NCBI GenBank assembly: GCA_964491155.1
Contig: CAZBFG010000001.1
Span: forward strand, 4,604 to 68,603
Reading direction: 5' to 3'
Source: an uncultured Bdellovibrionales bacterium
GTDB lineage: Bacteria > Patescibacteriota > Minisyncoccia > Moranbacterales > UBA1568
Length of the DNA: 64,000 nucleotides
The position numbers were made by a program, and so were the translations under genes. A model generated the notes under the pieces. It saw only the letters and a program-made list of their open reading frames with translations, had not been told where the DNA came from and did no database searches. Shown here one piece after another: positions 9,458 to 52,394 of the stretch. The stretch's first letter is position 1. The number at the start of each line of letters is the position of its first letter.

Positions 9458-10279
9458 TCAGTTCCAGTAAGCCCGAGGGACTCGGATGGTGACGTACTTG
9501 CCACCCGTGTCGCCGACCCATTCGGACATCCACGACTCGCAGTTGTTGGCCGGGTAAGGGCTCCGGTTCTTCTCGCTCTTCGGATCCTCACAGTGCAGGT
9601 CGAACCCGCTGTAGGCATTGTCCATGCCGCGCCACCAGTCGAGGCCGACTTGCAGCCTGGCCGGACCAACGATCGCGACTTCCATCTCCACCAGATAGCG
9701 GGCGTCCCGTTTGTTGTCCAGGCGCCGCCCGGTCCAGTTGTGGAAAAGACGACGAGCGACTTTGCCCGGAAAGACATTGTAGACCCCGCCTTCGTAGTCG
9801 TAGACAAGGTCATTTTCGCCTGTTCCGTCGGTCTCGCCGTACCACTTCTCGACCTCATGACCGCGCGCAGTCATCTGGATCCGCGGAAAAATCCCACCTG
9901 CATCCACGTTTTCTTCACTCGTAGCATTGAACGTGATGGTCTGAAGCAGCCGTTTCGGACTGTTCTTGCCACGCTGTTCGTAGACTTTCCACGAGCGAAT
10001 CGAGACACGAGATGCGCCTCCTGTGTCACAGGGAACAGCGTTTACCACCGTGATGTGACTGATGGCCGCATGAAAGTTCGGTGGCGGCGTTTCCCGACCG
10101 GGATGGTGGTGCTCATTCTTCCAGATGGCACCCGACGGCACCAACGGTAGATTGTTCACTGGTGTCCCCGGAGCACATGGTTTGGTAACCGGGTTTTGTG
10201 CCCACAGTGACGATGAGCACAAGAGCCAGACGATGGCCAAAAAAAACCTCAATGCTTTCGTCACTTGGACTCCTTTCAT
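9458..10279 (-). CDS. Secreted hypothetical protein (high-GC island)
   Basis: Signal peptide MKGVQVTKALRFFLAIVWLLCSSSLWAQ; an AAGGAG ribosome-binding site; about 60% GC. Confidence 0.6.
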   Translation of the reverse strand: MKGVQVTKALRFFLAIVWLLCSSSLWAQNPVTKPCAPGTPVNNLPLVPSGAIWKNEHHHPGRETPPPNFHAAISHITVVNAVPCDTGGASRVSIRSWKVYEQRGKNSPKRLLQTITFNATSEENVDAGGIFPRIQMTARGHEVEKWYGETDGTGENDLVYDYEGGVYNVFPGKVARRLFHNWTGRRLDNKRDARYLVEMEVAIVGPARLQVGLDWWRGMDNAYSGFDLHCEDPKSEKNRSPYPANNCESWMSEWVGDTGGKYVTIRVPRAYWN

Positions 10280-11994: not shown

Positions 11995-13617
11995 TCAGTC
12001 GTCAGCGTCAGAGGGCGCGGTCTTCCACTGCTTCTGGGGACTATTCATCCCCTTAGGCAGAATGACCATGCCATCCTTGTCGAGTCGGCCACCGGCCTTT
12101 TCGATCGCGGCCGTGAATTGCGCCTTGCGCGCTTGTTCACGATGCACGTAGACCGTCTTGCGGATGTCCCAGCTCCAGCCGAAACCGAAGAGTGAACCGC
12201 CGTTCAACAGGTCATAGTTGCGACCGAGGCCTATGAAGAGCCGCTCTTCCTTATCGCTCCACTGGAAGCGCCAGTTGGCCGTTTCTGCCAGGCTCGGAGC
12301 CTCTTGGAACCAGCCGAGCGCGAACCAGAGCTTGGTACCGATCTTGTCATCCTCTTCCGAAAGGTCGAGGAGACCGATACGTCCACCCACGTTCACGACA
12401 TGACTGAGCCTGGAGTCCGGGTCGGCCAGTGGTTGACCAAAAACGGAGTGTTCGGCCTCACCTCCCGTCGGCTTGAAGGCCGAAACGAAGAGTTGGTACT
12501 TGAAGAAGGACTTCTCCCCCCTCAACTCGCGTGCGTAGTTGTTGTACGCGAGCGTGATACCACGAAGGTCGAATTGCCGTTGGCTCTTGTAAGCCGCTTG
12601 CTCGCCGTTCTCTTCCAACGTGGCCCACGGCAGCAGCTTGAGACCGAAGTCGTAGCCACCTTCGTAAGCACTGTACTTGTAGGCCGGCCCGTAACCACCG
12701 AGGTGACCACTGAAACCAAAGCCTGTATCAGTCTTGCCGTGCCAGCTGCTGAAAGTGCCGCCGATACCGAACGCGTGTTCGGCACCGGAACCTTCAATGA
12801 AGAGACCGTAGAGCGCTCCAGACACGAACGTCGATTGCGCTGTCCGATCGTACTCCTTGCCGCCCACCAGTTCCCAGTCCCAGCGACGCACTGCCTCTTC
12901 AGGCGGTACTTCTTTGGGTTCGGGTTCTGGTATAACTTCTGGCGTCGGTTCTGGCTCTTTCTGCGGCTGCGGTTCTGGTTCCGGCTGTGGCTCAGGCTGT
13001 GGTTCTGGTTCCGGCTGTGGCTCAGGCTGGGACGTCACCATGAAGGTGATGTTCCCACATGAGAGCATATCGGCCAGCGTCTTGCCGGTCGAGAGCTTCC
13101 ATGTCTCCATCGCTTCGGGTCGCCCACCTTGTTCTGGTGTGCAAACCCTGACGTCACGGAGAAACTTGATCGTACCATCTTTGGAACGGAATGGCATGGC
13201 TTTGAACACCATGTCACTAGATACTAGCTCACGAACTCCACGCTCGAGAGAGACCAGAGCTTTCGCCTCGACTTTCTCTTCTGCCGTCAGATCCGGATTG
13301 GCATCGATTGCCTCCAGCCGAAGCTTGAGAGAGCCATAACGATTCCACGGCGCCCTATTCAAGTTGATGCAGGCTTGGGGCTGCTTCGCTTCGACAGCTG
13401 TACCACGCTCCGGGAACCGGATGATGGCACCAGCCTTGATGACGTTGCAGTCGTCCAGTTGATTGAACAGGCAGAGCACCTGCCAATCATGACCGAACTT
13501 CTTGGCAATCGATCCGAGCGTCTCGCCGGGATTGATTTTGTGAGGCGGCGTTTGATCGCCAGCCCACGCCCCCACCACTCCAAAGAGCAGCAAGAGAACC
13601 ATATACCATTTCTTCAT
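11995..13617 (-). CDS. Secreted LysM-like domain protein with a PEPQ-repeat linker and a Gly/aromatic-rich C-terminal domain
   Basis: Signal peptide MKKWYMVLLLLFGVVGAWAG; a LysM-like segment (INPGETLGSIAKKFGHDWQVL...IKAGAIIRFP); the linker QPEPQPEPEPQPEPQPEPEPQPQKEPEP; a C-terminal ~300 aa rich in G/F/Y/W. Confidence 0.6.
   Translation of the reverse strand: MKKWYMVLLLLFGVVGAWAGDQTPPHKINPGETLGSIAKKFGHDWQVLCLFNQLDDCNVIKAGAIIRFPERGTAVEAKQPQACINLNRAPWNRYGSLKLRLEAIDANPDLTAEEKVEAKALVSLERGVRELVSSDMVFKAMPFRSKDGTIKFLRDVRVCTPEQGGRPEAMETWKLSTGKTLADMLSCGNITFMVTSQPEPQPEPEPQPEPQPEPEPQPQKEPEPTPEVIPEPEPKEVPPEEAVRRWDWELVGGKEYDRTAQSTFVSGALYGLFIEGSGAEHAFGIGGTFSSWHGKTDTGFGFSGHLGGYGPAYKYSAYEGGYDFGLKLLPWATLEENGEQAAYKSQRQFDLRGITLAYNNYARELRGEKSFFKYQLFVSAFKPTGGEAEHSVFGQPLADPDSRLSHVVNVGGRIGLLDLSEEDDKIGTKLWFALGWFQEAPSLAETANWRFQWSDKEERLFIGLGRNYDLLNGGSLFGFGWSWDIRKTVYVHREQARKAQFTAAIEKAGGRLDKDGMVILPKGMNSPQKQWKTAPSDADD
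12936..13034. repeat. Tandem 30-bp DNA repeat encoding the PE/PQ linker
   Basis: ggttctggttccggctgtggctcaggctgt appears in at least two perfect copies plus degenerate copies. Confidence 0.7.
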
Positions 13618-14543
13618 GGCAAACTCCTTGTCTGTAGGTTTCTGGGTGGGTCGCTCGGAAGCAACCCGGCTTGGGTTTCTTCCTTCACGGCGTCACCTTT
13701 CTTCCCGCATCCGTTGTTCGCCACAGATATGTTATGCGGCAACGACAGCACTGCGCCGACAATCATAAACGTCGCGCTGGGCACTGCCGAAGCACTACCG
13801 CATGTGACGAGTCTGTCGAGCTTATTCACGCCCTTTGTCAGGGCGCCAACATGAACGATGTCCGGCTGCGTCGAGAACACTTCCCCATCATCTCCCATCG
13901 GGAGAGGAATGGGGTAGCGTGCTTCCAGCCACACGAAGAACTTGCGTCCTGCGGGGTGGTCGCGCCGGAAATTCGAATACTCAGGAAATGGCGAGGGATG
14001 GGCGGTGAAGAACTGATTACTCAGCTCAAAGGCGCCATTCTCGATATTTACCAAAGCACCCTTGGTCGTCATGACTGTCTTGCCATCATTGAACCGGACG
14101 AGCCAGTAGCCCCGATTGTACTCCGCCACCCTTCCAGGAGGCAAGAGTACAAAAAGCTCTGTTTCGTCAGGATTCATGATGGTGTCAAACACTTCAACTC
14201 TTCCATCGACGTAGTAGGCGGTTCGCCAGACCGAACAGATGACTGGTCGAACTGACTTCCCAACCTTGTACGAGCGACTCGGGTCACGGATCTCACTGCG
14301 CCAGGCCTCAGGGAGAGGCTTGGGCAACTTGATCATGGCGACCGTGTAGCTGAAGGTCTTGGTAACATCACCACGTACTGATACGCAGCGCCACGGCAGT
14401 TGTACACCACCTTGATCGCCTTGCTTCACCTTCGTGGTCTCGATGTTGTAGCCAATATCCTCTCTGACCTCTTCGATCTTCCGATCGATACTGGCGCACC
14501 CCGTGAGGAGGGCCAGAGCGATCATACCAATGATACGCAACAT
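13614..14543 (-). CDS. Lipoprotein of unknown function, overlapping the downstream LysM gene by 4 nt
   Basis: Lipobox MLRIIGMIALALLTGCAS; a GGAG ribosome-binding site ahead of the ATG at 14543; the track start at 14609 is an upstream extension. Confidence 0.6.
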   Translation of the reverse strand: MLRIIGMIALALLTGCASIDRKIEEVREDIGYNIETTKVKQGDQGGVQLPWRCVSVRGDVTKTFSYTVAMIKLPKPLPEAWRSEIRDPSRSYKVGKSVRPVICSVWRTAYYVDGRVEVFDTIMNPDETELFVLLPPGRVAEYNRGYWLVRFNDGKTVMTTKGALVNIENGAFELSNQFFTAHPSPFPEYSNFRRDHPAGRKFFVWLEARYPIPLPMGDDGEVFSTQPDIVHVGALTKGVNKLDRLVTCGSASAVPSATFMIVGAVLSLPHNISVANNGCGKKGDAVKEETQAGLLPSDPPRNLQTRSLP

Positions 14544-14667
14544 GGATATCTCCTTGTGGGTTGCACCAAACAAACTAACTGAACACAAATTGGTAAGGAT
14601 CAAAAACAACAGATCCTAGGAAGAAAGCAGTGGTGACGATGACGCCGCACCGCTCTCTTCCCAGGAA

Positions 14668-31244: not shown

Positions 31245-32099
31245 TCACTCGCTTTCTTTCATTATAGCAGAAACAACGGTCTTATATTCTTCCGGATAAT
31301 ACCTCCAATAAACATCTTCTTCAGTCTCTGCCGGAACAAGCCTCACAATAAGAGGTCTAACGCCAAAATCAGCAACTATACTCCTATATGTAGGTAAAAG
31401 AATGTTTTTTGTAAGATCACTATAAAATCCGCTCAAGAGGAAATTCTCAAAAAGAACGCCATGACAAATAAAAATTGAAAGGATATATCTATAGTATCTA
31501 CTTGCCTGCCCTCCATTTCTAGCATAATACTCAGACATATCAATTCTATTTTCAGATCCTAAAATAGAAGAAACTATACTGTGATGAAAATTAACAAGGC
31601 TTGTACCTGAAATAATTTTTACATCAGAAATTTTTTTTCCATCAAAAAAATCAAAATCCACAGCTTTTACAGACGATATTTTTCTGCCGCCCTTCTTGCC
31701 GAGTCCTTCATAAAAAACCATTTTTCCTAGATAATATTTATCCTCATTCTTGGTTACAAACTTATCACTGAGATACTCAAATCCTACCGGATCAATACCT
31801 ATACTCTTAACAGATTCTAAAAAATTTATAAGCTCAAAATTTGGACTCATGACATGCCGAGAGATCACTGCTCTCGGGGAAAGCTTCACTACTTCTGGAA
31901 TATCTTGCCCTAAGAATTCTTCTATTTTTGATTTTAACGCCGCATTATTCCACCGCTTCTTTATCTCTTCCTTTGCTTCATCAAGTGACATGTATATAGA
32001 ATCCAGCTCTGCTCTTGCATTCAAATCTTCTTGCGACATAAGACAGACACTATTATTCTCCAGTATTACTCTCAACATTCGTCTCGGGAAATTCCGCAC
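31245..32099 (-). CDS. Hypothetical cytoplasmic protein (AT-rich gene)
   Basis: 284-aa ORF with no recognisable motif; GC roughly 33%. The start is uncertain (GTG 32099, ATG 32078 or ATG 32039) and the first two options overlap the upstream gene. Confidence 0.45.
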   Translation of the reverse strand: MRNFPRRMLRVILENNSVCLMSQEDLNARAELDSIYMSLDEAKEEIKKRWNNAALKSKIEEFLGQDIPEVVKLSPRAVISRHVMSPNFELINFLESVKSIGIDPVGFEYLSDKFVTKNEDKYYLGKMVFYEGLGKKGGRKISSVKAVDFDFFDGKKISDVKIISGTSLVNFHHSIVSSILGSENRIDMSEYYARNGGQASRYYRYILSIFICHGVLFENFLLSGFYSDLTKNILLPTYRSIVADFGVRPLIVRLVPAETEEDVYWRYYPEEYKTVVSAIMKESE

Positions 32100-33929: not shown

Positions 33930-34047
33930 AAAACAAGAGAAAAAATATATTTCACCAACAGAAAAATAATAACACAAAAACACATTTTTGGAAAGAAAAA
34001 AGGACTGCAACTTGTGCAACCCCGTTGAAGTTTAGTAGCCCTCGTGG

Positions 34048-34584
34048 CTACTTCCGTAAACGCAGCACATCGCTGCAGAACCTCTCGGCACATAGCGTGC
34101 CGCGTGTCTTGAAGTCCCGGCTCCCCTGCCGCAGATCGGTCACGAACGGAAAGGACTGTTCGATTTCAAAGTCGACCCCGTACTTCGGAGTGCTGCCCTT
34201 GTCCGCCGAGAGTAACCAGACCTTGAAACGGTAGGAATGCCTGGCATCAAAACACCAGTTTTCCCGATTCAAGCTCTTTGACACGAAGAACCAGCGCTCG
34301 TTTTTCTCGTCACCATCCCGCGCGTGAACAACAAATCCGTGATTCCCCGGTGTGTTGAGGAAAAACGTGCCGATGCAGAACGATCTTGCATTGGAGCGCG
34401 GACTGATGTCAAACTCCACCTCACTGTCCCGAAAAATCGCCGACCACAACTCGGTCTGTGGGGTAGGGGCGATGGAGGATGAATAGACACGAACGTCCGT
34501 GTGGTAACCAGGGTAATCAGCCGGCGTTTGCGCACGCGCCGCCACCGAAACCAGCAAGCAAAGAACCATGGCGATGAGTTGCAT
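34048..34584 (-). CDS. Secreted hypothetical protein, in high-GC cassette 2
   Basis: Signal peptide MQLIAMVLCLLVSVAARAQTPAD; an AGGAGG ribosome-binding site; own promoter at 34620-34648 (TTGACT-17-TATGGT) and terminator. Confidence 0.6.
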   Translation of the reverse strand: MQLIAMVLCLLVSVAARAQTPADYPGYHTDVRVYSSSIAPTPQTELWSAIFRDSEVEFDISPRSNARSFCIGTFFLNTPGNHGFVVHARDGDEKNERWFFVSKSLNRENWCFDARHSYRFKVWLLSADKGSTPKYGVDFEIEQSFPFVTDLRQGSRDFKTRGTLCAERFCSDVLRLRK

Positions 34585-34619
34585 CGCTTCCTCCTATGCG
34601 TCACGGATTGTGACTGTTC

Positions 34620-34648
34620 ACCATAACCTGAAATAAGAAAAAAGTCAA
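34620..34648 (-). promoter_or_regulatory. Sigma70-type promoter TTGACT-17-TATGGT for 34048-34584
   Basis: The minus strand reads cttgacttttttcttatttcaggttatggt. Confidence 0.45.
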
Positions 34649-34677
34649 GAAAAAACAGAGGAGCTGGAAACCCTCTG
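34645..34677 (-). terminator. Intrinsic terminator after the acidic protein gene
   Basis: On the minus strand, cagaggg-tttccagc-tcctctg is followed by ttttttctt. Confidence 0.55.
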
Positions 34678-34706
34678 CTTTTCTTTCTGTCTATCCTCCC
34701 CTTGTG

Positions 34707-36101
34707 TTATTTCCCGATGTTGAAGAACCAACCCAAGAGACTGAGGCGATCACGCTGACCTCCCACAAAATTCTGTAACTTCGATGTCTGTGCCTTGAGC
34801 ACTTCGACCTGATCAAGGATGATGGATTTCATGTCCTGATCTTCCACGGCCTCAGCTGCTTTCAGCAAGGACTCCGTACGAGTCTTGTTCGCAGCGATTT
34901 CTTGTTCCAAGCTATTCAAATCAGCATCACTGGCGCCAAACAATGCCTGCAAGACCGGATTGCGCTTGTCGACTTCTTTGACAGTCTCACCAATCTTCTT
35001 GGTAGCATCCTTATGGTCATCAGCGATACGACGGATTGCCCGTCCAACGTTGTCATCTTCAATATCAGCCACATCATTCAGGTGTTCAGCAATATCGTCA
35101 CTTTCGTCCTCCAGATCATCGTCGAGCTCTTCGTCCGTACCACCCAAGGCATAGATCATTCCTTCAACACTACTCTTGAGACGCTTGACCTTGCGCTCCA
35201 AGGCATCAAGAGAATCCTCCATCGCAGCCAAATCATATCCACCTGCAGCGATAGTAGCCTTGAGTGCTGCCAAATCAGACTCATACGACGCAAGAGTAGA
35301 CTTCACAGAACTACTATCACCTCCAACCGCTTCTAACAAAGCAATCTTGCCATTCGTTTGAGTAATCCGCTTGGCTACTTTGGCGACATCTTCAGCAACT
35401 TCCTTGGCATCATGCAAATCGTCGTTACGAGCGAAATGAGCCAATTTCTTCACTTCTTTGCTCAGCTGCTTGGCAGCTTCAAGATCATTACTATCAAACG
35501 CACCGCCCACTGTTGCTGCCATTATCTTGGCTTCGGCCAATCGAGCCAGGGCCGCCGTCACATCCACTCCTTCAGCCTGCTTCTCGAGAATTTCCTTTTC
35601 TGCTTCAGCAAGTTCTTTATCGAGCTTTGAAAGGGTCTTGGCACGATCCTTGTACATGCCATTGTCACTTCCCTTTCGGTCATCTCCGTCCTCATCCTCC
35701 AATTCGTCAACTCCGTTTTCATCACTGTCATCGTCTGCATCATCACTGTCATCATCCAAGTCATCTAATCCGTCATCGTCGGAAGTCTTTCCTGATCGCT
35801 CAGCCGCTTTCTTGAGCGTTTCACGCTCTCGCTCGGCTTTCTTTTTAGCTTCTTCCTTGGCTTTCTTCTCAGACTTCGACTCCTTATCATCATCTTTATC
35901 TTCGTCATCATCCTTGTCTTCGTCACTATCATCACCCCCATCATCATCTCCATCATCACCGCTCCCACTTTCAGCCAATGAAGTAGGAATGAAATTTAAA
36001 CCATTTTGAGTTGCCAGAGCCATGATACCAACGAACCCACCAAACGAAAGCACTGCTACCAACAATGCCGGCAACAGAGCGACTTTTTTCTTCTCAGACA
36101 T
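34707..36101 (-). CDS. Membrane-anchored, extremely acidic coiled-coil protein
   Basis: N-terminal TM helix; poly-Asp/Glu tracts (GDDGDDDGGDDSDEDKDDDEDKDDD); long heptad-like helical repeats; encoded by GAT/GAC-rich low-complexity DNA. Confidence 0.6.
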   Translation of the reverse strand: MSEKKKVALLPALLVAVLSFGGFVGIMALATQNGLNFIPTSLAESGSGDDGDDDGGDDSDEDKDDDEDKDDDKESKSEKKAKEEAKKKAERERETLKKAAERSGKTSDDDGLDDLDDDSDDADDDSDENGVDELEDEDGDDRKGSDNGMYKDRAKTLSKLDKELAEAEKEILEKQAEGVDVTAALARLAEAKIMAATVGGAFDSNDLEAAKQLSKEVKKLAHFARNDDLHDAKEVAEDVAKVAKRITQTNGKIALLEAVGGDSSSVKSTLASYESDLAALKATIAAGGYDLAAMEDSLDALERKVKRLKSSVEGMIYALGGTDEELDDDLEDESDDIAEHLNDVADIEDDNVGRAIRRIADDHKDATKKIGETVKEVDKRNPVLQALFGASDADLNSLEQEIAANKTRTESLLKAAEAVEDQDMKSIILDQVEVLKAQTSKLQNFVGGQRDRLSLLGWFFNIGK

Positions 36102-36201: not shown

Positions 36202-36846
36202 CTACTCAGTGGCCGCATTTTCTATGGCTTTTTTAAACGCATCCACACTACTTGGGTTCTCAAGCTTTTTCCCATTCAAAAAGAATGATGGTGTTCCTGA
36301 TATCTTGAGTTCGTTTCCAGTTGCACGGTCTTGATTGATTTTTTCATCCAAAGACGAATCATTCATGTCTTGTTTGAATTTTTCCACATCAATACCAACC
36401 CGGGTAGCGTAGGCAGGAAAAATACTCTTGGTTGGATCATCAGCGCTTGACCATTCTTTCTGATTGGTAAAAAGCATATCGTACATTTCCCAAAACTTCC
36501 CCTGACGGCCAGCTGCCTCCGCGGCCCGCGAGCTCGGTAACGCGTTTTTATGGATCTGAATGAGTGGATAATGACGCACCACAAACTTCATCTTTCCTTC
36601 TAGCTCTTTTGAAAGCTGATCAATGATAGGATGGTATGCCGCACAAGCCGGGCACTGAAAATCAGTATATTCTACCAACGTTACCGGAGCCCCAGCATCG
36701 CCTTTGACTCTGTCTTGCTCCGTGAGAGCGATTGGCCCGCCAAGAGCGACTGATCCTTCATTTTCTCCGGAAAACCCGTACTGCCAAACCGTAAACCCAA
36801 TAAACCCAACTAACGCTACCAATCCCAGCTTTATCAATGCACCCAT
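36202..36846 (-). CDS. DsbA-like thiol:disulfide oxidoreductase (thioredoxin fold), membrane anchored
   Basis: N-terminal TM helix; CPAC active site within FQCPACAAYHP. Confidence 0.75.
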   Translation of the reverse strand: MGALIKLGLVALVGFIGFTVWQYGFSGENEGSVALGGPIALTEQDRVKGDAGAPVTLVEYTDFQCPACAAYHPIIDQLSKELEGKMKFVVRHYPLIQIHKNALPSSRAAEAAGRQGKFWEMYDMLFTNQKEWSSADDPTKSIFPAYATRVGIDVEKFKQDMNDSSLDEKINQDRATGNELKISGTPSFFLNGKKLENPSSVDAFKKAIENAATE

Positions 36847-39895: not shown

Positions 39896-39943
39896 ATATA
39901 CCCACTCTAGCGCAAAATGAGCCTTTCGGCGAGGGTAAGCCAA

Positions 39944-39984
39944 GAAAAAGAAAAGCCCGCGCTTGGTTGTTCACCTTGCGCGGG
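39944..39984 (-). terminator. Intrinsic terminator after 39990-40547
   Basis: On the minus strand, cccgcgc-aaggtgaacaaccaa-gcgcggg is followed by cttttctttttctt. Confidence 0.6.
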
Positions 39985-39989
39985 AAAGA

Positions 39990-40547
39990 TCAGTACTCAG
40001 CGTCGTCCGTGAAGTGTACGAAGTACCACTTCCCGGCGACCGAGCATTTGCCACCGAAGCGCGGGCTCGCCGGATTGCGCCGGTTATTCCACAATTCGGT
40101 ATACTCCACAGAACAGGCCAGCGTGTAGAGTTGCCCACTCATACGGTCAGTGAGCATGATCCAGAGCGTGTCGCCCTGAACACTGATCGACTCGAGCGGA
40201 CCCCGCTTCCACAACCAGTCCGCATGGAAGCGTGGAGTGATCTCCACCACCCAGTGATTCCGCACGTGTTCGGCCGTCCGTTCTATGAACGGATGTTGTC
40301 CCGACGGCGTCTTCAGTCGACGACTCGCGTGACAGAAAACGATGTGTCCGTTCGGGCTGTGCTCGGGGTAGACCTCCCACTCTTCGCCAGCGGAGATCGA
40401 TTGCCGGCGAGGAGGCTCGATGATGAGCTTGTAGTTCTTGCCGTCGAATTCGTACGGCGCCCACAGTTGCCTCTGACTGTTGTGGACACCCTCCCGCACC
40501 GTGACGGTGATGGTGTGGAAGAAGGGAATGTTGCGGTTGGTAGACAT
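39990..40547 (-). CDS. Hypothetical cytoplasmic protein, in high-GC cassette 3
   Basis: 185 aa with no signal peptide; an AAGGAG ribosome-binding site; about 60% GC. Confidence 0.55.
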   Translation of the reverse strand: MSTNRNIPFFHTITVTVREGVHNSQRQLWAPYEFDGKNYKLIIEPPRRQSISAGEEWEVYPEHSPNGHIVFCHASRRLKTPSGQHPFIERTAEHVRNHWVVEITPRFHADWLWKRGPLESISVQGDTLWIMLTDRMSGQLYTLACSVEYTELWNNRRNPASPRFGGKCSVAGKWYFVHFTDDAEY

Positions 40548-40698
40548 CGTAGTCTCCTTGGTTCAGGGGTTGCATCGCTGCATCCCACAGACTTCGGATT
40601 CCACTTGTCCAGAAAAAAATTGAGATGCAGACAGTTGTTCAAAAATCTACATCATATGTGCCAATACATGAGTATCTCCTTTTAAAGTACGAAACGAG

Positions 40699-40727
40699 AT
40701 GATAGCATATTTTCGTATAAAAGTCAA
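40699..40727 (-). promoter_or_regulatory. Sigma70-type promoter TTGACT-17-TATCAT for 39990-40547
   Basis: The minus strand reads ttgacttttatacgaaaatatgctatcat; it implies a ~145-nt leader containing a tiny uORF (MYWHI). Confidence 0.55.
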
Positions 40728-40741
40728 TAGATAAGAGTTCA

Positions 40742-40769
40742 AAAAAGAGGCTTAAAAAATCCTCTTTTA
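40742..40769 (-). terminator. Intrinsic terminator after the metzincin gene
   Basis: On the minus strand, aagagg-attttttaag-cctctt is followed by tttttt. Confidence 0.55.
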
Positions 40770-40806
40770 AATATTTTACATTGAAGTAACCGTACTTTCT
40801 CACGCT

Positions 40807-41766
40807 TCAAACTATTTTATCAACCACTCTCCCCTTCAAAATATTAATCCGTTCCCAAATGATGTCCCAGACAGTCTGATTGCACCGAGTGAGGAGCATG
40901 GCTTTGTCTTCGGATGACAGCGCTATCGGATCGAGAGACTGCTGTTCCATCAAATAGTACATCATCGACTGGGGATCGCTTCCGTGAGCAAACCCCAGGG
41001 CATGCCCAAATTCATGTACCAAGACGGCCCGGAGATGCGAGACATCATCGTACTGATAAATATTGATTTCTTCACCAACATAGTCCCCCTGGTCGAACTG
41101 CGCTGACTGTCCATAGCGCCCGGTATATTCTTCTACCCGCGCATTGTAGTCCTCGACCACTGCCACTTGTTTGGCCGAAAATGAATTAACTTCTTTGGCC
41201 AGTGCATTCACCTCGAGTCGTTTGGCCTCCAGTTCTTTTTCTTCCTTGAGAAGCACCCGCGAGACCTTTTCCAGGTCTTTATAGACATCCTCCGGAGCAC
41301 CGCCTTCGCGATTCCATTTTTCCACCTCAGCATTATAGGCACTCAGTTTTCTCTTGAACGATTCAAACAAACGCTCGTATTCTCTACTGGTCTTTTCGTA
41401 CAAAGAACGGGTCTTTTGCTGCTTTTGTTCCAGAGTTTCTTGTGAAGCCTTTGTTTTTTCCAAAAAAGATTCTAGTTTTTGACCCTCAAGCGTGCGCTCC
41501 TGCCGCTCGTCAAAAACCAGATTTATTTTGAACGCAGCCTCTGGCACAAAGCGAAACAACTCCCGACCCAGTGCACTTTCCCATAGTTCTTCGGCAGCAC
41601 TGGCTTCCTGCAAGAAATCTTCCTGACTGATACCAAAGCGACTATCGAATGCCCCGAGAGCATACTCGATCGGCGTAGCACACGGCACTGGTACGGTTTT
41701 CCACACTAAAACTGTGCCCAAAACAAGGACAACAAAAAGTCCGTACTGGAGAATCTTTTTTATCAT
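40807..41766 (-). CDS. Membrane-anchored metzincin (matrixin-like) zinc peptidase
   Basis: N-terminal TM helix, a coiled-coil spacer, and the HEFGHALGFAHGSD motif (HExxHxxGxxH) followed by a Met-turn (MMYYLM). Confidence 0.7.
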   Translation of the reverse strand: MIKKILQYGLFVVLVLGTVLVWKTVPVPCATPIEYALGAFDSRFGISQEDFLQEASAAEELWESALGRELFRFVPEAAFKINLVFDERQERTLEGQKLESFLEKTKASQETLEQKQQKTRSLYEKTSREYERLFESFKRKLSAYNAEVEKWNREGGAPEDVYKDLEKVSRVLLKEEKELEAKRLEVNALAKEVNSFSAKQVAVVEDYNARVEEYTGRYGQSAQFDQGDYVGEEINIYQYDDVSHLRAVLVHEFGHALGFAHGSDPQSMMYYLMEQQSLDPIALSSEDKAMLLTRCNQTVWDIIWERINILKGRVVDKIV

Positions 41767-44213: not shown

Positions 44214-44214
44214 A

Positions 44215-45252
44215 CTAGAATTGTCGAATAAAACGAAGGTCGCCGCTCATCAGGAGACGGATATCAGTAATCTTGTACTTCATCATGGCGAGACGTGTCA
44301 TCCCGAAACCCCAAGCAAAGCCCTGGTACACGCCGCGTTTGTAACCCGCCGCCTCAAAGACTCGCTGATTGACCATACCTGCGCCCCCTATTTCGAGCCA
44401 GCCGCTCTGCTTGCACGTTGCACACCCTTTTCCACTGCACAGGATACAACTGATATCAAATTCAAACGAAGGTTCCGTAAATGGAAAAAAGCTTGGTCGC
44501 AATCGCACACTCACTTTTTCTCCAAAAAACCTGCTAAAAAACTCCTCAGCCACATACTTGAATGTCGCCACACTCACTGCGCCCTCCACATCTACCATGA
44601 GGCACTCAAACTGATGAAAGGTATGCTCATGTGAAGCATCAGTCGCTTCATTGCGAAACACCCGACCCGGTACAATCACACGGAGCGGTGGCTTGTGTGC
44701 CTCCATGTAGCGCACTTGGACACCCGATGTATGAGTACGTGGGAGATAATGGTCTTTTACTTTTTTCTCACTTTTTATCCAGAAAGTATCCTGCATGTCA
44801 CGAGATGGGTGATCCTTTGGAAAGTTCAGCGCATCAAAATTGTAACTTTCCGTTTCTACTTCCGGTCCATCAGCAATATCGAAACCCATCGACGAGAAAA
44901 TATCTTCAATGTCGTGTTCGAGACGAGTGATAGGATGCAAATGGCCAGCTCGTGCGGATACACCAGGTGCCGTGATGTCGATCCCTTCGGCTTGCCAATC
45001 GATACTATTTTCAAGCAGCTCCTTTTTCTTGGCATCAAACAAAGCGATGAGCTTCTGCTTGGTACTGTTCCCAAGGGGTCCGACAATTTTCTTTTCCTCG
45101 GGTGACAAATCACGGAGGCCTTTGAGGAGTGTGTTCAGTTCACTCTTGCGACCCAGATATTCAATTTCCCAAGCTTCAAGAAGAGCCATCGTTTTGATTG
45201 CTCCCAATTTTTCCTCCCCTGCCTGACCGATTTTTTCAATCTGTTCTTTCAT
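44215..45252 (-). CDS. pheS: Phenylalanyl-tRNA synthetase alpha subunit
   Basis: 345 aa; class II motifs (FRNE, GxGxGxxR-like region) and a C-terminal catalytic core. Confidence 0.9.
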   Translation of the reverse strand: MKEQIEKIGQAGEEKLGAIKTMALLEAWEIEYLGRKSELNTLLKGLRDLSPEEKKIVGPLGNSTKQKLIALFDAKKKELLENSIDWQAEGIDITAPGVSARAGHLHPITRLEHDIEDIFSSMGFDIADGPEVETESYNFDALNFPKDHPSRDMQDTFWIKSEKKVKDHYLPRTHTSGVQVRYMEAHKPPLRVIVPGRVFRNEATDASHEHTFHQFECLMVDVEGAVSVATFKYVAEEFFSRFFGEKVSVRLRPSFFPFTEPSFEFDISCILCSGKGCATCKQSGWLEIGGAGMVNQRVFEAAGYKRGVYQGFAWGFGMTRLAMMKYKITDIRLLMSGDLRFIRQF

Positions 45253-52225: not shown

Positions 52226-52394
52226 TTGAGTAGCTTCCTAGCTGCTTAGCTTTTAGCTTCTTAGTTCTTAGAAGCCGGACTTCTAAGTAATATACGACTT
52301 CACGAACAGATGATTTACTATACAGTAAATCCTGAAAAAAGCAAGAGTTGGTGCATAAAAATACCTATTTCAAGCCATAATTTCCTAAAAAGTA

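What the first reader, a model, noticed from the sequence alone, without database searches (positions are those of the whole stretch)
34020..34706. High-GC cassette 2: a secreted 178-aa protein with its own promoter and terminator, between speH and the acidic protein gene
The gene at 34048-34584 has signal peptide MQLIAMVLCLLVSVAARAQ and an AGGAGG ribosome-binding site. The minus strand upstream reads cttgact-17-tatggt at 34620-34648, placed directly after the acidic protein's terminator hairpin at 34656-34677. The composition is again about 60% GC within an AT-richer neighbourhood. The protein is unknown and rich in Trp/Phe/Arg.
Basis: seen in the sequence. Interest (0 to 1): 0.5.

Follow-up and report, generated by a model that had tools for sequence, protein, structure and literature searches.

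The report
Strain-specific secreted-protein gene in variable slot
This is a real, self-contained gene for a small exported protein of a very rare, unnamed family, and it sits in a spot of a Moranbacteria (candidate phyla radiation) genome where related strains carry other genes or none; it is a fairly ordinary strain-specific accessory gene.

Summary
The ORF at 34048-34584 (minus strand, 178 aa), its AGGAGG site, the TTGACT-17-TATGGT promoter-like site and both flanking hairpin/T-run terminators are at the stated coordinates. GC is 55.5% for the ORF, not about 60%. GC3 is 0.69, against 0.51 +/- 0.07 for the window's genes.

It is a real coding gene. Two distant homologs (26-35% identity, E about 1e-10 among 1.84 billion representatives) share the signal peptide, four invariant cysteines and several motifs. 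No Pfam, NCBIfam, PHROG, PADLOC or PDB match exists. AlphaFold gives only a low-confidence all-beta model.

The window comes from a Candidatus Moranbacteria genome. In relatives, the acidic-protein gene is followed directly by speH in 4 loci. Other loci hold unrelated content there: a PsbP-like protein, a PD-(D/E)XK nuclease or a 176-aa secreted orphan. The closest relative (about 88-92% nucleotide identity) has a different 563-bp higher-GC segment between the same two boundaries.

The 650-bp segment 34002-34651 is therefore a strain-specific, probably horizontally acquired, single-gene unit in a replacement hot spot of a cell-envelope locus. Its product is most likely a Sec-exported, disulfide-stabilised beta-sandwich protein. 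Its function is unknown, and transcription could not be tested.

The parts
34650..34683 (-). Intrinsic terminator of the upstream acidic-protein gene (core stem CAGAGG/CCTCTG at 34656-34677, T-run at 34650-34655). It belongs to the conserved backbone and marks the left edge of the variable segment.
   Evidence: -16.7 kcal/mol. The homologous hairpin is conserved in L002 (-20.4 kcal/mol, z -5.7) and present in L007, L008, L010 and L012.
34002..34651 (-). Strain-specific variable segment (650 bp, 54% GC). It holds the promoter, a 5' UTR of about 25-30 nt, the CDS and the terminator stem.
   Evidence: blastn homology with L002 stops at window 34652 and resumes at 34001. L002 has an unrelated 563-bp segment there, with no DNA or protein similarity. 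Four relatives have only 140-240 bp between the two flanking genes.
34620..34648 (-). Sigma-70-like promoter candidate: TTGACT, 17 nt, TATGGT. The -35 hexamer starts 2 nt after the upstream T-run.
   Evidence: 9 of 12 matches. TTGAC[AT] with a 17-nt spacer also precedes cassette 1, the L003 slot gene and the homologs in L024 and L029. Function was not tested.
34590..34595 (-). Ribosome-binding site AGGAGG, 5 nt upstream of the ATG.
34048..34584 (-). CDS of the 178-aa protein (stop codon TAG at 34048-34050). The mature part of 160 aa has pI 7.9, is beta-rich, and carries four conserved Cys (C70, C111, C165, C170).
   Evidence: It is the only open frame of the six. Homologs P0002 and P0003 match at E 6e-11 and 3.5e-10.
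34531..34584 (-). Predicted Sec signal peptide, residues 1-18 (MQLIAMVLCLLVSVAARA, then Q). The hydrophobic core is followed by A-R-A. The n-region has no basic residue, and there is no lipobox.
   Evidence: Read directly from the sequence. In the alignment the homologs have MKIIRLLIASVLLALSINAQA|W and MSRGIVCVASILLMFFSSRSLYA|W at the same place. AF2 models residues 2-14 as a helix.
33992..34023 (-). The gene's own intrinsic terminator (9-bp stem GGGGTTGCA/TGCAGTCCT, loop CAAGT, T-run TTTTTTCTTT). The T-run overlaps the -35 of the speH promoter (33966-33994).
   Evidence: -14.2 kcal/mol for the 61-nt stretch. Homology to L002 resumes at the T-run.

Best explanation
The segment 34002-34651 is a strain-specific single-gene transcription unit: promoter, ribosome-binding site, 178-codon ORF and intrinsic terminator. 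It lies in a recombination and replacement hot spot between the acidic-protein gene's terminator and the speH promoter of a Candidatus Moranbacteria (CPR/Patescibacteria) genome. It was most likely gained by horizontal transfer from a higher-GC donor after this lineage split from its nearest sampled relative.

The product is a Sec-exported protein of about 18.6 kDa from a very rare, unannotated family. Only three distinct members were found in the two protein collections searched. I infer that after signal-peptide cleavage (A18|Q19) it folds outside the cytoplasm into a beta-sandwich held by two disulfides. Those disulfides would be formed by the DsbA-type oxidoreductase encoded two genes upstream. 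I also infer that it acts as a cell-surface or extracellular binding protein, part of the variable envelope and secretome repertoire of this presumed episymbiont.

Shown here: the gene structure, that the ORF codes for protein, its homologs, the conserved Cys, its absence or replacement in relatives, and its atypical codon usage. Inferred: export, disulfides, independent transcription and horizontal origin. Speculative (about 0.3): a binding role rather than an enzymatic one.
For: 1. Coding.
- It is the only open frame, and a run this long occurs in 0.65% of shuffles.
- GC by codon position is 0.52, 0.45 and 0.69.
- Two homologs were found among 1.84e9 representatives, at E 6.4e-11 and 3.5e-10.
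- The alignment has 31 invariant columns, including 4 Cys and the motifs EVEFD, FC[IL], GGGF, WCF[DN], FE[IV]EQ and C-x3-FC-x-D.

2. Export. All three members have an N-terminal hydrophobic segment that ends in a small-x-small site.

3. Disulfides. The mature part has four invariant Cys. A DsbA/Thioredoxin_4 gene lies at 36202-36846 (E 5.6e-31). The homolog P0003 lies immediately downstream of a membrane-anchored DsbA gene with a CPYC motif.

5. Cassette and hot spot.
- The backbone GT4-Wzz-like-GT4-DsbA-acidic protein-[slot]-speH is conserved in the relatives.
- The slot is empty in L007, L008, L010 and L012, with gaps of 140-240 bp.
- It holds PsbP_2-like genes in L005 and L013-L017 (Pfam match made on the L005 protein only).
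- It holds a 176-aa secreted orphan in L003.
- It holds a PD-(D/E)XK nuclease of GC 0.60 in L020.
- It holds an unrelated 563-bp segment of 55% GC in L002, whose flanks are about 88-92% identical to the window.
- No member of the family occurs in any frame of the 22 related loci L002-L023.
- Nucleotide identity to L002 drops to 0.75-0.86 next to the slot.

6. Foreign origin. GC3 is 2.8 SD above the host genes. The host codon model scores it at about 0 bits per codon, against 0.13-0.39 for host genes. One annotation pipeline did not call the gene on an identical contig.

7. Own signals. The promoter, ribosome-binding site and terminators are documented.
Against: - No transcription data exist. 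The -10 hexamer (TATGGT) is weak, and the promoter score alone is at chance level for the region.
- The upstream terminator's energy is not better than that of shuffles (z -0.4), so read-through from the acidic-protein gene is possible.
- The signal peptide has no basic residue in its n-region.
- The structure models are of low confidence (pLDDT 46-49), so the fold statement is weak.
- No donor, integrase, flanking repeat or target duplication was found, so the mechanism of gain is unknown.
- The link to DsbA is weak. In the window the DsbA gene belongs to the conserved backbone. The third homolog sits near a cytoplasmic peroxiredoxin, not a DsbA.
- The two homologs have low GC3 (0.41-0.44), so they say nothing about the donor.
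Confidence: 0.7

Rival explanations
1. The gene is ancestral and vertically inherited. It would be a fast-evolving positional ortholog of the other small exported proteins found in this slot (the L003 176-aa protein and the PsbP_2-like proteins), lost in the lineages whose slot is empty.
For: The L003 slot gene has almost the same length (176 aa), a similar signal peptide (MRSFIVCLLLCFGLIQAQA) and the same promoter-gene-terminator layout. Exported proteins occupy the slot in several lineages.
Against: No similarity is detectable to the L003 protein (BLASTP E 0.049 for a single pairwise comparison) or to PsbP_2. The family profile finds nothing in any frame of the 22 related loci. The nearest relative, with flanks about 88-92% identical, has an unrelated segment. 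GC3 and codon usage are foreign to the host. Four relatives spread across the group have an empty slot.
Confidence: 0.1
2. The gene is not an independent unit. It would be transcribed mainly by read-through from the acidic-protein gene (and perhaps on into speH), with the promoter-like hexamers being fortuitous.
For: All genes here lie on the same strand with short gaps. The promoter matches only 9 of 12 positions, and such sites are as common in shuffles. The upstream hairpin's energy is unremarkable (z -0.4).
Against: The hairpin plus T-run is conserved in all relatives, where it ends the acidic-protein gene. The -35 TTGACT starts 2 nt after the T-run. The same TTGAC[AT]-17 architecture precedes the other stand-alone slot genes and both homologs. 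The gene also has its own terminator, and speH has its own extended -10 promoter.
Confidence: 0.15
3. The ORF is spurious or a decaying remnant, so the segment is non-coding foreign DNA.
For: The gene caller used for the 117-kb ENA contig, which is identical over the 20.6 kb compared, left a 778-bp gap here. The host codon model does not separate the sense frame from antisense frame 0 (-0.001 against -0.008 bits per codon).
Against: The homologs are significant, with conserved Cys, conserved motifs and aligned signal peptides. A strong ribosome-binding site sits at the right spacing. The open frame is improbable by chance. GC is highest at the third codon position. The antisense frames are broken by stops.
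Confidence: 0.03
4. The segment is a cassette of a defined mobile system: an integron cassette, a miniature transposon, or a phage or plasmid remnant.
For: It is a compact single-gene unit of foreign composition in a slot that holds a transposase-carrying insertion in L005 and L015-L017. The other higher-GC cassette of the window (39990-40547) belongs to a family found at different genomic positions.
Against: There are no flanking direct or inverted repeats beyond chance. No attC-like element is present: the only 3' structure is a terminator with a T-run. The unit has its own promoter, unlike typical integron cassettes. It has no phage, plasmid or viral-contig relatives and no PHROG or PADLOC match. 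It shares no similarity with cassette 1 apart from one 11-mer.
Confidence: 0.05
5. The N-terminal hydrophobic segment is an uncleaved signal anchor or a lipoprotein signal, so the protein stays tethered to the membrane rather than being released.
For: The n-region has no basic residue and the hydrophobic core contains a Cys (C9). Neighbouring backbone proteins (the acidic protein and the 166-aa Cys-rich protein) appear to be membrane-anchored by an N-terminal hydrophobic segment.
Against: C9 is preceded by M-V-L, which is not a lipobox, and lies in the middle of the hydrophobic core. An A-R-A|Q site follows a 14-residue core. Both homologs have canonical cleavable signals (AQA|W and LYA|W).
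Confidence: 0.1

Closest known systems
Uncharacterised homologs P0002 (203 aa; Logan SRR22388173) and P0003 (199 aa; ENA ERZ4201063, ERZ4201064 and ERZ27287888)
   Same: They share the signal peptide, the size of the mature domain, four invariant Cys and the motifs EVEFD, FC[IL], GGGF, WCF[DN], FE[IV]EQ and C-x3-FC-x-D. Both are stand-alone genes with their own promoter-like site and terminator.
   Different: Identity is only 26-35%. They are acidic (pI 4.8-5.3, against 7.9). Their GC3 is low (0.41-0.44, against 0.69). They sit in different genomic contexts in distantly related organisms. None has a name or a known function.
Replacement flexible genomic islands or islets of closely related strains (concept as in PMC4033161; only the abstract was seen)
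   Same: The position is the same between conserved flanking genes, the content is non-homologous among close relatives, divergence is raised in the flanks, and the slot is embedded in a cell-envelope and glycosyltransferase locus.
   Different: The scale is a single gene (650 bp) rather than a multi-gene cluster. The genomes compared are about 88-92% identical, so they are related species rather than strains of one species. Exchange by homologous recombination is inferred, not shown.
Integron gene cassettes
   Same: Both are compact, single-ORF units of foreign composition that differ between relatives at one site.
   Different: This unit has its own promoter and an intrinsic terminator. No attC-like repeat and no flanking repeats were found. 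I did not scan the window specifically for an integrase.
PsbP_2-like (PF18933) membrane-anchored proteins that occupy the same slot in other Moranbacteria
   Same: They are exported or anchored small proteins of about 200 aa encoded directly after the acidic-protein gene.
   Different: There is no sequence similarity. This protein has no Pfam match. It is predicted to be all-beta with four Cys.
Small disulfide-bonded periplasmic beta-sandwich binders and inhibitors (for example MliC/PliC, PliG or ecotin). This is recalled from memory as a lead only.
   Same: They are similar in size, are Sec-exported, are beta-rich and are stabilised by disulfides.
   Different: No sequence or confident structural match was obtained. 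Membership is not claimed.

Membership tests
Sec-dependent secreted protein (type I signal peptide) | An N-terminal hydrophobic core of 10-15 residues followed by a small-x-small cleavage site | tested here: met
   The core LIAMVLCLLVSVAA is followed by A16-R17-A18|Q19. The aligned homologs end in AQA|W and LYA|W. This was judged by inspection; no dedicated predictor was available.
Sec-dependent secreted protein (type I signal peptide) | A positively charged n-region | tested here: not met
   The n-region is only M-Q. The homologs do have K/R there (MKIIR, MSR). This weakens the call but does not exclude it.
Sec-dependent secreted protein (type I signal peptide) | Actual export and cleavage | not testable with these tools
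   This needs a PhoA or beta-lactamase fusion, or N-terminal sequencing.
Bacterial lipoprotein | A lipobox [LVI][ASTVI][GAS]C at the end of the hydrophobic core | tested here: not met
   The only N-terminal Cys (C9) is preceded by M-V-L and lies inside the hydrophobic core.
DsbA substrate (disulfide-bonded exported protein) | An even number of conserved Cys in the exported part, and a DsbA-type oxidoreductase in the genome | tested here: met
   C70, C111, C165 and C170 are invariant in the three members. A DsbA/Thioredoxin_4 gene lies at 36202-36846.
DsbA substrate (disulfide-bonded exported protein) | Disulfides actually formed, and dependent on DsbA | not testable with these tools
   This needs expression with and without DsbA, and thiol mapping.
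Replacement-type flexible genomic islet | The same site between conserved flanking genes carries non-homologous content in related genomes | tested here: met
   six different states of the slot were seen among 23 loci.
Replacement-type flexible genomic islet | Exchange by homologous recombination in the flanks | tested here: inconclusive
   Identity to L002 dips to 0.75-0.86 beside the slot, against about 0.9 elsewhere. No recombination test was possible with two sequences.
Integron gene cassette | An attC recombination site at the 3' end; usually no promoter; an integrase and attI nearby | tested here: not met
   No imperfect inverted repeat other than the terminator and no flanking repeats. 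The unit has its own promoter-like site. An integrase was not specifically searched for in the whole window.
Any curated protein family (Pfam, NCBIfam, PHROGs, PADLOC) or solved structure | A significant profile or sequence match | tested here: not met
   Searches gave no match for this protein or its two homologs.
Phage- or plasmid-borne gene | Relatives in phage, plasmid or viral-contig collections | tested here: not met
   Searches gave no match. The BFVD fold search gave nothing at E <= 0.001.

The most novel reading that the evidence does not exclude
Self-contained promoter-ORF-terminator units, of which this is one and the window's other higher-GC cassette at 39990-40547 is another, may move between CPR genomes as autonomous cassettes. 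They would insert next to intrinsic terminators by a mechanism that needs no integrase and leaves no repeats. On this reading the 178-aa protein founds a new family of DsbA-dependent secreted effectors used by these episymbionts on their hosts.
Probability: 0.1. Interest if true: 0.6.

Novelty: new member of a known kind. Interest (0 to 1): 0.3.

Why it matters
CPR/Patescibacteria have tiny genomes and are thought to live attached to host cells. Their variable exported proteins are therefore the natural candidates for host recognition and for the arms race with phages.

This finding pins down one such gene exactly. It has defined boundaries, and it sits in a defined hot spot whose alleles differ between near relatives. 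It belongs to a three-member protein family with a conserved four-Cys signature that no database names. One public annotation missed the gene.

That makes it a small, clean test case for how streamlined genomes gain single genes. By itself it is an ordinary accessory gene of unknown function.

Tried and rejected
- **Paralogy with cassette 1 (39990-40547):** none (BLASTP E 0.085).
- **Similarity to the L003 slot protein:** none. The L002 slot ORF also shows no similarity at DNA or protein level.
- **P0004 (771 aa, four repeats, E 1e-4):** rejected as a relative. hhalign gave 7.9% probability over 33 columns.
- **Flanking repeats or target duplications:** only short chance-level matches, for example a 10-nt AT-rich inverted repeat that is not conserved in L002.
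- **Rfam scan:** nothing in the leaders of this gene, of cassette 1 or of the homologs.
- **Phage, plasmid, IMG/VR, PHROG and PADLOC searches:** all negative.
- **afdb50 fold library:** not available.
- **Thioredoxin-fold neighbour in all three contexts as a functional link:** weakened. The L029 neighbour is a cytoplasmic Prx5-type peroxiredoxin, and the window's DsbA gene belongs to the backbone present in relatives that lack this gene.
- **Taxonomy of the organisms carrying P0002 and P0003:** They share only 35-40% identity with the window in DsbA and FtsE.
- the first representative and PDB queries dropped the initial Met because of a coordinate error. This has no effect on the results.

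Full report
**1. Observation**

The minus strand of 33990-34700 reads, in order, as follows.
- The stop codon of a 464-aa acidic protein lies at 34707-34709.
- A hairpin follows, with core CAGAGG/CCTCTG at 34656-34677 and extended stem at 34650-34683, then a T-run.
- TTGACT is at 34648-34643.
- A 17-nt spacer follows.
- TATGGT is at 34625-34620.
- AGGAGG is at 34595-34590.
- The ATG is at 34584.
- A 178-codon ORF ends with TAG at 34050-34048.
- A 9-bp GC-rich hairpin at 34023-34001 carries a T-run down to 33992.
- The speH promoter has an extended -10 (TGTTATTAT) and spans 33994-33966.
- The speH ATG is at 33932.

The composition claim is overstated. The ORF is 55.5% GC and the interval 34020-34706 is 53.6% GC. 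The window averages 48.3%, and the 3-kb flanks are 39% and 47%. GC3 is 0.69, against 0.507 +/- 0.067 for 35 long ORFs of the window. Trp, Phe and Arg are enriched.

The promoter-like site matches 9 of 12 positions. Over the 3-kb region such sites are as frequent in shuffled sequence (4 found, 3.9 expected). Only its placement in the roughly 54-nt gap between T-run and ribosome-binding site is unlikely by chance, with about 0.02 sites expected (my estimate from the rates).

**2. Is it a gene?**

Yes.
- It is the only open frame of the six.
- A stop-free run this long occurs in 0.65% of shuffles of the segment.
- The ribosome-binding site is strong and well spaced.
- An exhaustive HMMER search of 1.84 billion cluster representatives found two real relatives besides the protein itself: P0002 (203 aa, 35% identity, E 6.4e-11) and P0003 (199 aa, 26% identity, E 3.5e-10).

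The three-way alignment has 31 invariant columns. All four Cys of the mature protein are invariant (C70, C111, C165, C170). The shared motifs are EVEFD, FC[IL], GGGF, WCF[DN], YS.R, FE[IV]EQ and C-x3-FC-x-D. All three proteins start with a hydrophobic signal-type segment ending in A-x-A or Y-A.

A profile of the three, searched against 5.8 billion proteins, finds no further member. A fourth hit, P0004, was rejected (hhalign probability 7.9%).

No curated family or solved structure matches any member.

The host-trained codon model gives this ORF about 0 bits per codon, against 0.13-0.39 for host genes. The gene caller used on the 117-kb ENA contig left the region unannotated, although that contig is identical to the window over the 20.6 kb compared. 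The caller used on the Logan contig did call the gene.

**3. Where it sits**

The acidic protein has relatives in 11 GTDB genomes and 11 metagenome contigs. They are labelled Candidatus Moraniibacteriota or Moranbacteria. Some third-party assemblies label them 'uncultured Bdellovibrionales', which their synteny and identity contradict.

The backbone is conserved: GT4 glycosyltransferase, Wzz-like 198-aa protein, GT4, DsbA, acidic protein, [slot], speH, EamA-like transporter, Cys-rich 166-aa membrane protein.

The slot after the acidic protein's terminator varies.

| Slot content | Loci |
|---|---|
| Empty (140-240 bp to speH) | L007, L008, L010, L012 |
| PsbP_2-like anchored proteins of about 200 aa; in L005 and L015-L017 a transposase gene follows (second copy and 772-aa protein seen in L005) | L005, L013-L017 |
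| 176-aa secreted orphan with its own promoter and terminator | L003 |
| PD-(D/E)XK nuclease gene of 60% GC | L020 |
| Unrelated 563-bp, 55%-GC segment with a 125-codon ORF | L002 |

L002 is the closest relative, with flanks about 88-92% identical in nucleotides. Homology between the window and L002 stops at window 34652, just after the shared terminator. It resumes at 34001, at the T-run in front of the shared speH promoter. The two inserts share nothing at DNA or protein level.

The family profile finds no trace of this protein in any frame of any related locus. Identity to L002 drops to 0.75-0.86 beside the slot. No flanking repeats, attC-like element or integrase signature were seen.

**4. 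Interpretation**

Several steps are inferred rather than shown.
- **Origin.** The simplest reading is a strain-specific single-gene unit gained in a replacement hot spot. It probably came from a higher-GC donor, because GC3 and codon usage are foreign and the nearest relatives lack it.
- **Export.** The product is most likely exported by Sec and cleaved after A18. It has an even number of invariant Cys, and a DsbA gene lies two genes upstream. In the P0003 organism the homolog lies directly after a membrane-anchored DsbA gene. I therefore infer two extracytoplasmic disulfides.
- **Role.** The locus around it encodes envelope functions: glycosyltransferases, a chain-length-determinant-like protein, DsbA, and anchored acidic and Cys-rich proteins. 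I therefore propose a surface or secreted binding role in the variable envelope repertoire. This last step is speculative.

**5. Rivals**

- An ancestral, fast-evolving positional ortholog is disfavoured by distribution and composition.
- Read-through transcription cannot be excluded, but conserved terminators and the recurrent TTGAC[AT]-17 promoter architecture argue against it.
- A spurious ORF is excluded by the homologs.
- A defined mobile element has no supporting features.
- A membrane-tethered form is possible but less likely.

**6. Comparison and novelty**

The arrangement behaves like a miniature replacement-type flexible genomic islet. It is not an integron cassette. The protein belongs to no described family, and its only relatives are two unnamed metagenomic proteins.

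This is a new member of a known kind: a strain-specific accessory exported-protein gene. The interest is modest. Orphan accessory genes are common in CPR genomes, and no function emerges.

**7. Side observation worth its own look**

The window's other higher-GC cassette (39990-40547) belongs to a small family that sits at different genomic sites in other genomes, including between fusA and tuf. It carries a very conserved leader with a five-codon upstream ORF (M-x-W-H-I-stop) followed by a hairpin.

Noticed in passing
window 39918-40874 (gene 39990-40547, minus strand); L030 4800-5600; L031 4870-5620; L033 4870-5650: The other higher-GC cassette (185 aa, GC 0.586, GC3 0.76, no signal peptide, no family match) is absent from L002 at this site. 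Its homologs (49-76% identity) lie at different positions in other genomes: between fusA and tuf, after fusA, and between two HtrA-like genes. DNA homology spans the leader (from about 134 nt upstream of the start codon), gene and terminator; the TTGACTTTTATA promoter is shared with L031 and L033. The leader holds a strongly conserved mini-ORF, AAGGAGA...ATG-nnn-TGG-CAC-ATA-TGA (M-[Y/N/G]-W-H-I-stop), followed by a conserved hairpin. It looks like an attenuator-type leader on a mobile stand-alone gene. No Rfam match.
   Followed up: partly
window 34571-34594 and 40553-40575: The 11-mer AGCGATGCAAC occurs both across the start codon of the 178-aa gene and in the leader of cassette 1, and both promoters begin TTGACTTTT. 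In the 178-aa gene the ATG lies in a 6-bp hairpin, GCGATG-caact-CATCGC (34587-34571). This could be chance (roughly 0.01 expected) or a trace of common origin. It remains unexplained.
   Followed up: no
L034 15842-16618 (identical to window 34706-33930): The gene calls on record for the ENA contig of 117 kb, which is 100% identical to the window over the 20.6 kb compared, leave a 778-bp gap where the 178-aa gene lies. The protein cluster lists only the Logan contig as its source. So the gene is unannotated in at least one public record.
   Followed up: yes
L002 9556-10118: The closest relative carries an unrelated 563-bp, 55%-GC segment in the same slot. It has a good promoter (TTGCAG-17-TATAAA with TG), a terminator-like hairpin right after it, a 125-codon ORF (9693-10070) without a signal peptide, and its own terminator. 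GC by codon position (0.66, 0.52, 0.55) is not clearly that of a coding sequence, and no family matches.
   Followed up: partly
window 31245-32099 (minus strand): A 284-aa ORF with very low GC (0.354; GC3 0.29) is only 53% identical to its positional counterpart in L002, whereas the flanking genes are 89-94% identical. Nucleotide identity dips to about 0.6. This is a second hypervariable gene in the same locus, with no Pfam match.
   Followed up: no
L005 11467-16190; L015-L017: In these Moranbacteria the same slot has grown to about 5 kb. It holds two paralogous PsbP_2-like anchored proteins separated by a split transposase/integrase-like gene on the opposite strand, plus a 772-aa secreted protein of 54% GC.
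   Followed up: no
L020 5047-5802: In this relative the slot holds a PD-(D/E)XK nuclease gene (PF12705, E 6e-15) of 60% GC and GC3 0.77, in a locus of 51% GC. This is another compositionally foreign single gene at the same site.
   Followed up: no
L002 607-990 against window 44214-44216; window 52231-52264: L002 has a roughly 380-bp insertion relative to the window. It contains a 34-bp stretch 97% identical to window 52231-52264, possibly a short dispersed repeat.
   Followed up: no
L002, L004-L007, L010, L012 (record titles): Several third-party MAG assemblies titled 'uncultured Bdellovibrionales bacterium' share gene order with the Moraniibacteriota MAGs and the window, with 40-92% acidic-protein identity. 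The taxonomic label of those records looks wrong.
   Followed up: no
window 11995-14609 (minus strand): Two adjacent long ORFs have GC 0.54-0.57 and GC3 0.63-0.66, also above the window's mean. They may form another compositionally distinct stretch.
   Followed up: no
L024 5163-6170: The homolog P0003 is also a stand-alone unit. It follows the DsbA terminator, then TTGACA-17-TAGTAT and an untranslated leader of about 200 nt with no Rfam match. It has its own terminator, and a tRNA-Thr gene lies on the opposite strand 60 nt downstream.
   Followed up: partly
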